From the NCBI GenBank assembly GCA_044221725.1, contig JBGAON010000002.1, forward strand, positions 512,001 through 576,000: a stretch of DNA of 64,000 nucleotides, given 5' to 3'. Made by a program: the position numbers. The number at the start of each line of letters is the position of its first letter. Position 1 is the stretch's first letter. This document shows positions 37,101 through 40,100 of this stretch, in pieces. This DNA comes from Elusimicrobiota bacterium (GTDB lineage Bacteria > Elusimicrobiota > Elusimicrobia > F11).

Positions 37101-40100
37101 GCGTTTACGATGTTCTCACGAAAACCAACACGGCGATAAAATTCCCGGGAGAATTTCAGATATGGCTACCCGATGGAAGTTTTCTTTTGACATCGGCCGA
37201 AACCGATTTGTTTGACCAACATCTGTTGCGTTACCACGTGGGCGAAGATTTGCCCCAGCTCGTGACGAATCTACGCGGATGGTGGGGGCAAACCAGCGTG
37301 AGCCCCGACGCGCGCACGCTGCTCATTGCGTTCAGCCAACCGGTACCGTCATCAAAAGACATCAACATGAGCACGGATATTGGCGACACGCCGCAACTCT
37401 CAAGCCGAATTCTCAAATACAATCTGCGCACGGCGAACTTCGTTAACGTGTCGCCGGTTGGGTTCTGGTCCGAATATCAAATGCCAAGCTATTCACCGTC
37501 GGGCAAACGCATCGCGTACGTGCAGCAAAGCGAAATGGACAGCGCCGGTTTTGTGCACGGAAAACTTATCATCGATGGAAAACCCGTGATCGATTTGCCA
37601 CACGCGCCGTTCGAATATTATTGGATCGATGACAACACGCTGACGACCGTTGAAGACGACACGTTGCTCGTCATAAATGCGAACACGGGCCGGGAACTCG
37701 GCCACACGCATCTCGCGGCCGACGAACCGACGCTCACGGCCTCGCCGAAGTGATCCCTTTCCAAATTAAAAGCGTAAGTTATAATCCGCACTTATGATTA
37801 TTGGACTCACGGGGCGGAATGCCTCAGGCAAAGGCGAGGTCGCTAACTATTTAAAAGAACGCGGCTTCACGTTTTATTCGCTGTCAGACGTTCTGCGTGA
37901 AGAACTGAAAAAGAAAAAGAAACCGGTCACGCGCACGAATCTCATTTGGCTGGGAAACAAACTGCGCGATGAGAAAGGCCCGTCGGTTCTTGCCGACAGT
38001 ATTCTCTGCCGTTTGCAAGATGATCATCACTACGTGATCGATTCGTTCCGCAATCCCGAAGAAGTGAAAGCATTCCGCCGCACCAAAGGAAAGGACTTCG
38101 TGCTCATTTCTGTAGAAGCATCACAGCGCCAACGGTTCGAACGGCTTCTCTCGAGAAACCGCGAAGCCGACGCAAAAACGTTTGAAGAATTTGTTCGTCA
38201 TGAAAACAAAGAGCTTCATAGTTCCGAACCCACCAAACAGAACCTAATCGCGTGCGCGGCCCTTGCCGATCATCATTTGCCGAACAATGGCACGCTTGAG
38301 GCGCTGCACAAACGGCTCAATTCCTTTTTCGCGAATCTGCTGATGCACGCGCCGCGTCCTGGATGGGACGAATATTTTATGCGCATCGCGCGCGTGGTTG
38401 CGTCGCGTTCGAATTGCATGAAACGAAAAGTTGCCGCGCTCATCGTGAAAGATGGCCGCATTATTTCAACCGGATACAACGGCACCCCGCGCGGCACCAT
38501 CAACTGCAACGAAGGGGGCTGCCCGCGTTGCAACGCGTTTAAACCCAGCGGACAAGGCCTTTCCGAATGTTATTGCTCGCACGCAGAGGAAAACGCGATT
38601 GTGCAAGCGTCCTATCACGGTATCGGCATTAAAGGCGCCACACTTTATTCGACCTTCTCGCCGTGCCTCATTTGCACGAAAATGATTATCAACTCGGGTA
38701 TCGCTGAAGTCGTGTACAACGAGGCTTACCCCCTCGGCCAGGAAGCATTGGCGCTGCTCAAGAAGCCGCACATCCGCGTTCGAAAATTTGTTTCGACACC
38801 GCTCGACGTGTAAGGAATGAAGAAAGCGCTCTTCGCACTGCTGCTCGTCACTGCCGCCCCCGCCGCTCACGCCGCCTTTTACGAAGAAGAACCGAGAATA
38901 TCGACCGAACCCGTTGGATCTCCGTTTTATCGTCACCTCGCGTTCGAACGCAAGGTCGATTTATTGGAACTGGAAAAGTTTGAAAAGCACGGCTTCACGC
39001 GAACCGAAGTCTGCACAATTGTTTTGCTCTCGAGCGCCACGCATGTGCCGATGAAAACCTATGGGAAACGGCGGCTCAAAGAAAAAATCTCCTATGAGAA
39101 ACTGGCCACCGAAGCGCACATCGATTACAGCAAGCTGCGCGAAGACGCGCACGCACTGAAACTTAAGATTGAAGCGATGGGCAGCGACAATTTGCCGCCA
39201 CCGGTTTACGAACCAACACCCGCGCCAACGCCGTCCCCAACCCCGGAACCGCCCAGTTCGAAGAAAGAAAAGAAGAATCAGAAGAAGGAAAAACCGCGGC
39301 AAGAAGAGAAAAGCAGTTCGGACGCGGAACCTGTTCCATCGGAGTTTCAATGAAACTTGATCGCTTAAAACCAATTCATATTCTCATCGGGTTGCACGCA
39401 GCACTGCTGCTGCTCGCGATTGGCGTCATCGTTCGCCAAAAAGGGCGCGCGCCGCTCACGAAAGAAAAGATTGCGCTCGTGGCGATTGATGGGGAAATCT
39501 CCGGTGAGAAAGCGGGTATGGAACGCGGTGTCTCCGTGGGCGACATTGTGGATGCGATCAATGAATTCCGCGACGACGATGCGGTCAAAGCGATGGTGCT
39601 GCGCATCAATTCGCCCGGCGGTTCTGTCGGTGCCGTTCAGGAAATTTACTCGGCGCTCAAAAAATTTCGCGCCAAAAACAAAGTAATTGTTGCGTCCTTT
39701 GGAGATGTGGCGGCCTCCGGCGGGTATTATTTGTCGTGCGCGAGCACAAAAATTGTTTCGGAACCGGGCACGCTCACCGGCTCGATCGGCGTTATCATGG
39801 AAATTCCAAACGTGCAGGGATTGCTCGGGAAAATTGGTATTTCGATGCAAGCGCTTAAGTCTGGTTCCATGAAAGACGCGGGCTCGCCCTTCCGTTCAAT
39901 GACCGACGTCGAAACCGCGTATTTTCAGAAAGTGATCATAGACGCATACGACCAGTTTTTTGCGGCGGTCAAAGAAGGCCGCGCGATGAGCGATGAAACC
40001 CTGCGCCCACTCGCCGATGGGAGAATCTTTACTGGTCGCGATGCCAAAGAAAAACAGCTCGTGGATCAGATTGGAGACCTCGAAGACGCCACCGAACTCG

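What a model noticed while it worked through the whole genome (the two positions that open the first line are those of the whole stretch)
37794..38813. Cytidylate kinase Cmk is replaced by an archaeal UPF0200-type kinase fused to dCMP deaminase
This pyrimidine-prototrophic genome has no Cmk. It carries g01720, an archaeal UPF0200/AdkA-like P-loop kinase fused to dCMP deaminase, whose distribution mirrors the loss of Cmk. This predicts the missing (d)CMP kinase activity for a family of unknown function.
Evidence so far: Cmk family over cut-off in 0 of 5 F11 genomes, controls 13 of 14. In the same 40 phylum genomes: 22 have Cmk only, 17 have this kinase only, 1 neither, 0 both. The fusion is in 11 of 11 other F11 genomes at 72-88% identity. 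The N-domain matches Sulfolobus SSO1041 (3H0K, E 7e-16; call 64). CoaE, Adk, Tmk, Gmk and PyrH are all separately present.
(Added by a program. Inside this text positions count along the whole contig: contig position 512,001 is position 1 of the stretch shown here. "Call 12" and the like, gene names such as g00115 and contig names such as C1 are that model's own, and its searches are not shown. The text may have been shortened before it was handed on; [...] marks where a part breaks off. The agent that wrote the report below was given it as the finding of a first reader that could run no searches.)

Follow-up and report, generated by a model that had tools for sequence, protein, structure and literature searches.

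The report
Likely third family of CMP kinase
This gene joins a nucleotide-kinase domain to a dCMP deaminase, and the kinase turns up again and again in bacteria that have lost the standard cytidylate kinase, so it probably does that job as an unrecognised substitute, though its substrate has not been tested.

Summary
The 339-aa fusion is real: an intact NMP-kinase domain (K) plus an intact dCMP deaminase. Cmk was not found in the genome, and aroA abuts plsC where relatives carry cmk. Elusimicrobiota, 201 genomes: K only 80, Cmk only 106, both 10, neither 5. Terriglobia class, 151: all 22 with strong K lack Cmk. Omnitrophota, 121: 60 of 62 K-negative genomes have a high-scoring Cmk, no K-positive genome does. 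Tmk and CoaE stay in K genomes. One mostly Cmk-keeping Acidobacteriota lineage has the same deaminase behind a decayed kinase remnant.

Three corrections. "0 both" fails. The unit is K, which is often unfused. Archaeal UPF0200-like proteins are a separate clade with a different NMP pocket and coexist with archaeal Cmk, so the prediction does not extend to them.

Best reading: a housekeeping, non-orthologous (d)CMP kinase (about 0.7), not an antiphage AvcD/DcdV. The substrate is inferred. The scan noted this fusion before on other DNA as housekeeping; those notes, as shown, do not mention Cmk.

The parts
37794..38813 (+). Kinase-dCMP deaminase fusion gene, 339 aa
   Evidence: junction bridged in an independent DNA run and an RNA-library contig
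37794..38348 (+). NMP-kinase domain K (aa 1-185), proposed (d)CMP kinase; invariant or near-invariant G7, G12, K13, S29-L30-S31-D32, R35, R47, R58, S84, R86, E90, R114, R121, R123, E140, Q149
37812..37835 (+). P-loop, residues 7-14 (adenylate-kinase-like GxxxxGKG)
   Evidence: read from the sequence; P-loop pattern kept in 119 of 120 proteins
38349..38813 (+). dCMP deaminase domain (aa 186-339)
   Evidence: PF00383; S. mutans, T4 and human dCMP deaminases are the best solved relatives
38580..38675 (+). Zn/catalytic motif H263-x-E265 ... P290-C291-x-x-C294, intact
   Evidence: both motifs kept in 120 of 120 proteins
37758..37785 (+). Sigma-70-like promoter match (10 of 12) ending 8 bases before the ATG, in a 40-bp intergenic gap; suggests a leaderless transcript and leaves no intergenic room for an upstream sRNA
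   Evidence: consensus match only; 5 found in the region against 2.6 +/- 1.7 in shuffles; gap

Best explanation
K is a housekeeping nucleoside-monophosphate kinase that phosphorylates CMP and dCMP with ATP and has displaced Cmk in several bacterial lineages. Fused to dCMP deaminase, it would put both fates of dCMP on one chain: back to dCDP/dCTP through the kinase, or on to dUMP and dTMP through the deaminase and ThyA. It would also recycle CMP from RNA turnover and CDP-lipid synthesis into CDP for the diphosphate-type NrdJ reductase. Shown: fold, intact motifs, loss of cmk, complementary distribution, linkage to dCMP deaminase. Inferred: that the acceptor is a cytidine nucleotide, that CMP as well as dCMP is accepted, and any branch-point control.
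For: (1) Intact NMP-kinase fold and motifs. (2) cmk missing from its operon slot in mid-contig (against 19, 56). (3) Complementarity in three phyla. Elusimicrobiota: 80 of 85 Cmk-negative genomes have K, against 10 of 116 Cmk-positive; by family 14 K-only, 11 Cmk-only, 5 both, 2 neither. Terriglobia class: 22 of 27 Cmk-negative have strong K, against 0 of 124 Cmk-positive. Omnitrophota: 38 of 39 genomes with no Cmk hit have K; 60 of 62 K-negative genomes have Cmk at 223 bits or more, while the 21 K-positive hits score 198 or less, and 7 of the 8 read lie outside the housekeeping operon. (4) Specificity: in 70 K genomes Tmk 66, CoaE 63 (6 of the 7 misses are archaea); Gmk 4 of 4 bacteria; Cmk 4 of 50. 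(5) Reciprocal decay: six Terriglobia-class genomes, five with Cmk, carry the same deaminase clade behind a ~105-aa remnant without P-loop, NMP-binding or LID parts. (6) K is tied to dCMP deaminase as N-terminal fusion, C-terminal fusion (P0193), operon pair and convergent pair, sometimes followed by ndk. (7) G000 has a diphosphate-type NrdJ, so it needs CDP.
Against: No substrate evidence from residues or structure; the nearest folds after SSO1041 are phosphomevalonate, UMP and adenylate kinases, and Cmk ranks lower (Z 11.7-13.2). Nine Elusimicrobiota genomes in five families keep K and Cmk; the six read, plus G105, have an intact-looking cmk beside aroA. One Omnitrophota K genome (G401) keeps cmk in its operon. 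In archaea 7 of 8 strong-K genomes have archaeal Cmk over cut-off. G296 has the decayed kinase and no Cmk hit. PF13189 (Cmk-like) is present in 28 of 70 K genomes, and G000 has a second, weak Tmk-like gene; either could supply the activity in some genomes. cmk is dispensable in S. pneumoniae, and E. coli cmk mutants survive with altered pools (PMC9519441, passages), so loss need not be compensated. Kin are not independent: the tallies reflect a handful of events per phylum.
Confidence: 0.7

Rival explanations
1. K is a deoxy-specific or broad dNMP kinase, like phage dNMP kinases. It covers only dCMP to dCDP; CMP recycling is simply lost or rerouted, and K makes cmk loss tolerable rather than replacing it in full.
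For: 11 of 24 K sequences hit PF21448 DNMK at E <= 0.01; weak phage relatives are annotated as dNMP kinase or carry a dNMP-kinase domain note, one next to thymidylate synthase; constant link to dCMP deaminase; coexistence with Cmk in some bacteria and archaea.
Against: CMP is the larger flux that Cmk handles (30-fold CMP build-up in E. coli cmk mutants, as cited in PMC9519441). No Upp or Cdd motif match in G000 (motif scan only), and none of its four PF00383 hits reads as Cdd (the fourth called RibD from a weak tblastn match and length). Tmk is kept in K genomes.
Confidence: 0.14
2. K is mainly a nucleotide-sensing regulator of the deaminase, as proposed for the kinase domain of AvcD/DcdV, and the Cmk pattern comes from lineage history or from the deaminase.
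For: In DcdV and the E. coli AW1.7 enzyme, kinase-domain mutations abolish the deaminase-dependent phenotype. K and deaminase are fused or adjacent in many genomes.
Against: K is not beside a deaminase gene in family f12 (58 of 60 with K, 0 of 60 with Cmk over cut-off) or in Myxococcales loci, and 1 of 3 such Myxococcales genomes had no match to the deaminase query and 2 only a distant one. Deaminase relatives were found in 5 of 5 Cmk-positive, K-negative genomes tested. The deaminase stays intact where K has decayed.
Confidence: 0.08
3. K phosphorylates an unrelated small acceptor (GMP, dephospho-CoA, phosphomevalonate or similar) and the anti-correlation is incidental.
For: Second-best fold match is phosphomevalonate kinase (Z 16.9, rmsd 2.8, 164 aligned); automatic names in the Atlas are 'CoaE' or 'adenylate kinase'.
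Against: CoaE, Tmk and Gmk are kept in bacterial K genomes; two arCOG01045 proteins lacked dephospho-CoA kinase activity (PMC6650551); the pattern repeats in three phyla.
Confidence: 0.05
4. The gene is an antiphage dCTP deaminase of the AvcD/DcdV kind.
For: Same domain order; PADLOC dCTPase model E 1e-67; NF041025 166.5 bits.
Against: Cut-off is 400; 339 aa against 532-576 aa; 24-28% identity to annotated antiphage members; one match per genome in 88 of 90 positive genomes and near-universal within families; 9 neighbouring proteins gave no PADLOC hit; only a 40-bp gap upstream.
Confidence: 0.03

Closest known systems
Bacterial cytidylate kinase Cmk (TIGR00017, PF02224)
   Same: NMP-kinase fold (Z 11.7-13.2); proposed same reaction; complementary distribution.
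   Different: Not a member by sequence (no hit); shorter, adenylate-kinase-like NMP-binding region; not in the aroA-rpsA operon; often fused to or beside dCMP deaminase.
Archaeal arCOG01045 / UPF0200 kinases (SSO1041, 3H0K/3LW7; PRK08356)
   Same: Closest solved structure (Z 22.9, rmsd 1.8, 168 aligned, 29% identity); shared R58, R86, E90, R114, R117, R121, R123, E140, N164; function unassigned (PMC6650551).
   Different: Separate clade in a quick tree; K has L30-S31, R47, S84, Q149 where the 22 archaeal sequences mostly have M-G, D, G and no equivalent; they coexist with archaeal Cmk; PRK08356 score 76.7 against cut-off 189.
AvcD/DcdV and E. coli AW1.7 antiphage dCTP deaminases (NF041025)
   Same: N-terminal P-loop kinase plus C-terminal Zn deaminase; shared D-S-x-R-x-P-x-E segment.
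   Different: Far below cut-off, ~200 aa shorter, core-like distribution, no defence neighbours, no intergenic room for a 5' sRNA; deaminase is closest to ordinary dCMP deaminases.
Stand-alone dCMP deaminases (S. mutans 2HVV, T4 1VQ2, human 2W4L)
   Same: C-domain sequence and Zn motif.
   Different: Carries an N-terminal kinase; G000 also has Dcd, so this is a second route to dUMP.
Phage dNMP kinases (T4 gp1 1DEK; PF21448)
   Same: Fold (Z 13.2); weak Pfam hits in 11 of 24 members.
   Different: About 25% identity to the nearest phage proteins; cellular and mostly single-copy.
Fungal Dcd1-type dCMP deaminases
   Same: Named as nearest known in two earlier scan notes; the DcdV preprint reports the architecture in Ascomycota.
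   Different: Not compared here; fungi have their own UMP-CMP kinase (recalled).

Membership tests
NMP kinase superfamily | P-loop, NMP-binding and LID parts on a five-stranded core, with catalytic arginines | tested here: met
NMP kinase superfamily | ATP-dependent phosphorylation of an NMP | not testable with these tools
   needs an assay
Bacterial Cmk (TIGR00017/PF02224) | Score over the family cut-off | tested here: not met
   no hit at E <= 0.1
Bacterial Cmk (TIGR00017/PF02224) | Position in the aroA-cmk-plsC-ispH-rpsA region | tested here: not met
   the slot is empty in G000 and the gene lies on another contig
Functional (d)CMP kinase (analogue) | Present where Cmk is missing and dispensable where Cmk is kept | tested here: met
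   three phyla, with stated exceptions; not seen in archaea
Functional (d)CMP kinase (analogue) | Cytosine-reading residues in the NMP pocket | tested here: inconclusive
   invariant R47, R58 and E90 could form an Arg/carboxylate pair like Cmk R110/D132 (PMC3603445), but no ligand-bound model was available
UPF0200 / arCOG01045 | Homology to SSO1041 | tested here: met
   E 2.5e-16; Z 22.9
UPF0200 / arCOG01045 | Same clade and pocket residues as the near-universal archaeal proteins | tested here: not met
   the 22 archaeal rows are assigned to UPF0200 by inference, and SSO1041 itself was not in the tree
PRK08356 (NF006226) | Score over cut-off 189 | tested here: not met
   76.7 bits
dCMP deaminase | HxE...PCxxC Zn site and PF00383 over cut-off | tested here: met
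dCMP deaminase | dCTP activation, dTTP inhibition, hexamer | not testable with these tools
   recalled property of the family; needs an assay
AvcD/DcdV antiphage dCTP deaminase | Kinase plus deaminase architecture | tested here: met
AvcD/DcdV antiphage dCTP deaminase | NF041025 over cut-off 400; length over 350 aa | tested here: not met
   166.5 bits, 339 aa; size rule
AvcD/DcdV antiphage dCTP deaminase | Patchy distribution and defence-island context | tested here: not met
AvcD/DcdV antiphage dCTP deaminase | Inhibitory sRNA 5' of the gene | tested here: inconclusive
   40-bp gap only; no RNA-family search was run
AvcD/DcdV antiphage dCTP deaminase | Phage protection | not testable with these tools
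   needs plaque assays

The most novel reading that the evidence does not exclude
K defines a third, widespread prokaryotic (d)CMP-kinase family (1,164 clusters at 50% identity score E <= 1e-30 against the profile) that has traded places with Cmk in several phyla. The fused form is a dCMP branch-point enzyme and the housekeeping stock from which antiphage AvcD/DcdV arose, which would point to a cytidine nucleotide as the ligand of their unexplained kinase domain. The sister archaeal UPF0200 clade, with a different pocket, would then be free to be another missing NMP kinase, such as the unidentified archaeal GMP kinase.
Probability: 0.3. Interest if true: 0.8.

Novelty: new variant of a known kind. 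Interest (0 to 1): 0.6.

Why it matters
It would fill a hole in a core pathway for many uncultured bacteria whose reconstructions lack cytidylate kinase, and give a testable substrate to a large kinase family now auto-named 'AAA', 'CoaE' or 'adenylate kinase'. It separates a housekeeping gene from look-alike antiphage deaminases that defence scanners flag. It also gives a concrete lead on what the kinase domain of AvcD/DcdV binds. One complementation and one coupled assay would settle it.

Tried and rejected
Assembly gap as the cause of the missing cmk: rejected; aroA-plsC-rpsA are contiguous in mid-contig and other single-copy kinases are found in the same genomes. A divergent Cmk in G000: not found by six searches. 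PF13189 as the general substitute: rejected, 42 of 70 K genomes lack it. K as CoaE, Tmk or Gmk substitute: rejected for bacteria. Deaminase rather than kinase tracking Cmk loss: not supported. Extending the function to archaeal UPF0200: rejected. MGIII-like archaea as Cmk-negative examples: inconclusive, 5 of 5 have a 254-aa Cmk-like protein below cut-off. The one-sequence profile comparison of the decayed N-domain was weak (probability 5.8) and its fold match middling (Z about 6); only the profile-profile test was clear. L244 and L245 were not captured by the pattern and are not in that test. The careful tree did not finish; searches are quick trees, and the placement of DcdV-like and phage rows is unreliable. 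RNA contigs cover parts of the gene but do not show transcription. The Atlas gave only automatic names. Paper searches listed no paper proposing this replacement; the library lacks most subscription journals, and no supplements were read. Word and place searches of earlier findings returned nothing.

Full report
1. The gene. The ORF at 37794-38813 (+) encodes 339 aa. Residues 1-185 (here called K) are a P-loop kinase: best solved relative SSO1041 (E 2.5e-16), predicted model pLDDT 93.8, Z 22.9 to 3LW7, then phosphomevalonate kinase 16.9, uridylate kinase 14.9, Cmk 11.7-13.2. Residues 186-339 are a dCMP deaminase with an intact HxE...PCxxC site. Among 120 proteins from the homologue search, the P-loop pattern is kept in 119 and both deaminase motifs in 120. 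The junction is bridged by a contig from a DNA run of another study and by a contig from an RNA library, so the fusion is not an assembly error. A promoter-like match lies in the 40-bp gap upstream. Nine neighbouring proteins (AlaS, PurH, SppA-like and others) gave no PADLOC hit.

2. Cmk is missing from this genome. PF02224, TIGR02173, PF13189, TIGR00017, tblastn and a home-built HMM found nothing better than adenylate kinase (genome 93.9% complete). In relatives cmk follows aroA and precedes plsC or ispH. In G000 aroA runs directly into plsC and rpsA in the middle of contig C5. Adk, Gmk, CoaE, Tmk, PyrG, a PyrB candidate, PyrF and ThyA are present, PyrH by motif and family, and a diphosphate-type NrdJ lies directly before dcd. 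The cell therefore makes pyrimidines and needs CDP.

3. Distribution. Elusimicrobiota, 201 genomes at least 85% complete: K matched in 90, Cmk over cut-off in 116; K only 80, Cmk only 106, both 10, neither 5. One 'both' (G070) is a distant 405-aa AvcD-like protein. With G070 moved, families split 14 K-only, 11 Cmk-only, 5 both, 2 neither. Most K here are stand-alone; family f12 (genomes of 0.6-2.4 Mb, probably Endomicrobiaceae by my inference) has K in 58 of 60 and Cmk over cut-off in 0 of 60. Class of G243 (Terriglobia, from the record title and recalled taxonomy), 151 genomes: 22 have a strong K (E < 1e-50, frames of 332-411 aa) and none of them has Cmk; 124 have Cmk, 6 of them with only a distant K-like hit; 5 have neither (seven unlisted negatives identified by elimination; three unpublished genomes are among the 124 and do not affect the result). 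Omnitrophota, 121 genomes: K in 59. Of 62 without K, 60 have Cmk at 223 bits or more, one a divergent one, one none. Of 59 with K, 38 have no Cmk hit and 21 have hits of 198 bits or less, six of them only inside frames over 2,000 aa. Of 12 with ordinary length I read 8: one sits in the housekeeping operon and seven lie elsewhere, mostly beside nucleotidyltransferase-like or CDP-alcohol-phosphotransferase-like genes, although the two scored pass the TIGR00017 cut-off. Of the 80 loci I tested 50 genomes: 4 had Cmk over cut-off; this set overlaps the two samples above. Controls on those 50 plus 20 Elusimicrobiota K genomes: Tmk 66 of 70, CoaE 63 of 70, PF13189 28 of 70; Gmk 4 of 4 bacteria. Fisher tests are extreme but kin are not independent; the weight comes from repetition across phyla.

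4. Reciprocal decay. G261, a Cmk-positive Terriglobia-class genome, has a deaminase 67% identical to ours behind a 105-aa N-domain. It belongs to a family of 253-aa proteins. Profile alignment places the N-domain on the kinase core with two deletions that remove the NMP-binding and LID parts, and the P-loop is lost. The N-domain profile alone matches K at probability 93.9, E 1.6e-7; single sequences are weak, with 0-4 of 300 shuffles reaching their scores. A low-confidence model shows the core strand and helix order of K. Five further genomes, picked as probable kin of G261, all have this form; four have Cmk and G296 had no Cmk hit. Their deaminases form one clade among the fused ones. This is one event, but it is what redundancy with Cmk predicts: where Cmk stayed, the kinase decayed and the deaminase did not.

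5. Context. K is linked to dCMP deaminase as an N-terminal fusion, a C-terminal fusion (P0193), a same-strand pair and a convergent pair in archaea; in three loci an NDK-like gene follows. It also stands apart from any deaminase gene (f12, Myxococcales).

6. Limits of the UPF0200 label. In 91 genomes of the archaeal phylum of G231, 89 match the K profile and 83 have archaeal Cmk over cut-off; 7 of the 8 strongest K matches also have it. In a quick tree of 134 rows, 22 weaker archaeal matches form a separate clade (support 100, branch 1.03), while strong archaeal K nest among bacterial K. They differ at L30-S31, R47, S84 and Q149. Shimosaka et al. showed that TK1334 and TK2192 (arCOG01045) lack dephospho-CoA kinase activity and left their function open (PMC6650551, abstract and passages). 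The Cmk-replacement prediction thus applies to the K clade in bacteria, not to UPF0200 as a whole. Gmk was not found in five archaea, and PMC4177761 (passages) states that the archaeal guanylate kinase is unidentified; UPF0200 as that enzyme is an untested idea.

7. Antiphage reading. The architecture is known from DcdV (bioRxiv 2021.03.31.437871, passages and section 10) and the E. coli AW1.7 enzyme (bioRxiv 2021.04.26.441389, passages); both need their kinase domain, whose substrate those passages do not give. This gene scores 166.5 against a cut-off of 400, is under the 350-aa size rule, is 24-28% identical to annotated members, and behaves as a core gene.

8. Mechanism. Most likely K transfers phosphate from ATP to CMP and dCMP. 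CMP from RNA turnover and CDP-lipid synthesis returns to CDP for NrdJ and NDK; dCMP is split between rephosphorylation and deamination to dUMP for ThyA. Invariant R47, R58 and E90 may read cytosine as R110 and D132 do in Cmk (PMC3603445, passages), but this is inference. Against: coexistence with intact Cmk in 9 Elusimicrobiota genomes and in archaea, the G296 exception, PF13189 in part of the K genomes, and the dispensability of cmk in some bacteria (PMC9519441, passages). I put the (d)CMP-kinase reading at 0.7, deoxy-only or broad dNMP kinase at 0.14, regulator at 0.08, other acceptor at 0.05 and defence at 0.03.

9. Novelty. The fold, both domains and the architecture are known, and two earlier scan notes call such fusions housekeeping. 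Ten paper searches (listings only, except the papers named above) showed no proposal that this family replaces Cmk; coverage of subscription journals is poor. I rate it a new variant of a known kind, a non-orthologous displacement of a core enzyme, with interest 0.6.

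Noticed in passing
L235:1653-2411 (G261); L241-L245; P0272-P0293: Family of 253-aa proteins: intact dCMP deaminase behind a shrunken kinase core without P-loop, NMP-binding or LID parts; the remnant is itself conserved and may have a structural or regulatory role.
   Followed up: partly
G433, G404, G407, G490, G426, G417, G441, G463, G503 and others: Cmk-like domains inside giant Omnitrophota reading frames of 2,000-24,000 aa.
   Followed up: no
L144-L150: Accessory, divergent Cmk-like genes in Omnitrophota beside nucleotidyltransferase-like and CDP-alcohol-phosphotransferase-like genes; possibly CMP recycling for surface-polymer synthesis.
   Followed up: partly
L207-L228; Archaeal UPF0200-like kinases are near-universal while Gmk was not found in five archaea; a candidate for the unidentified archaeal GMP kinase, untested.
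   Followed up: partly
L179-L181: Distant K-like genes in three Cmk-positive Terriglobia-class genomes lie directly before an archaeal-type PurA/PurZ-like gene.
   Followed up: no
   Followed up: no
L186-L188: MGIII-like archaea have a 254-aa archaeal-Cmk-like protein with an insertion, below cut-off (69.5 of 102.1 bits).
   Followed up: partly
L252 (G000:C4:316354-316956): Second, weak Tmk-like P-loop protein (38 bits) of unknown role in the own genome.
   Followed up: no
P0121, P0131, P0188, P0247, P0184, P0129: Other K architectures: tandem kinase domains, fusion to adenylate kinase, to a sirtuin and to a receiver domain.
   Followed up: no
L160 (G204): An Acidobacteriota genome with the fusion also has an archaeal-type Cmk-like gene in front of ribosomal-protein genes.
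   Followed up: partly
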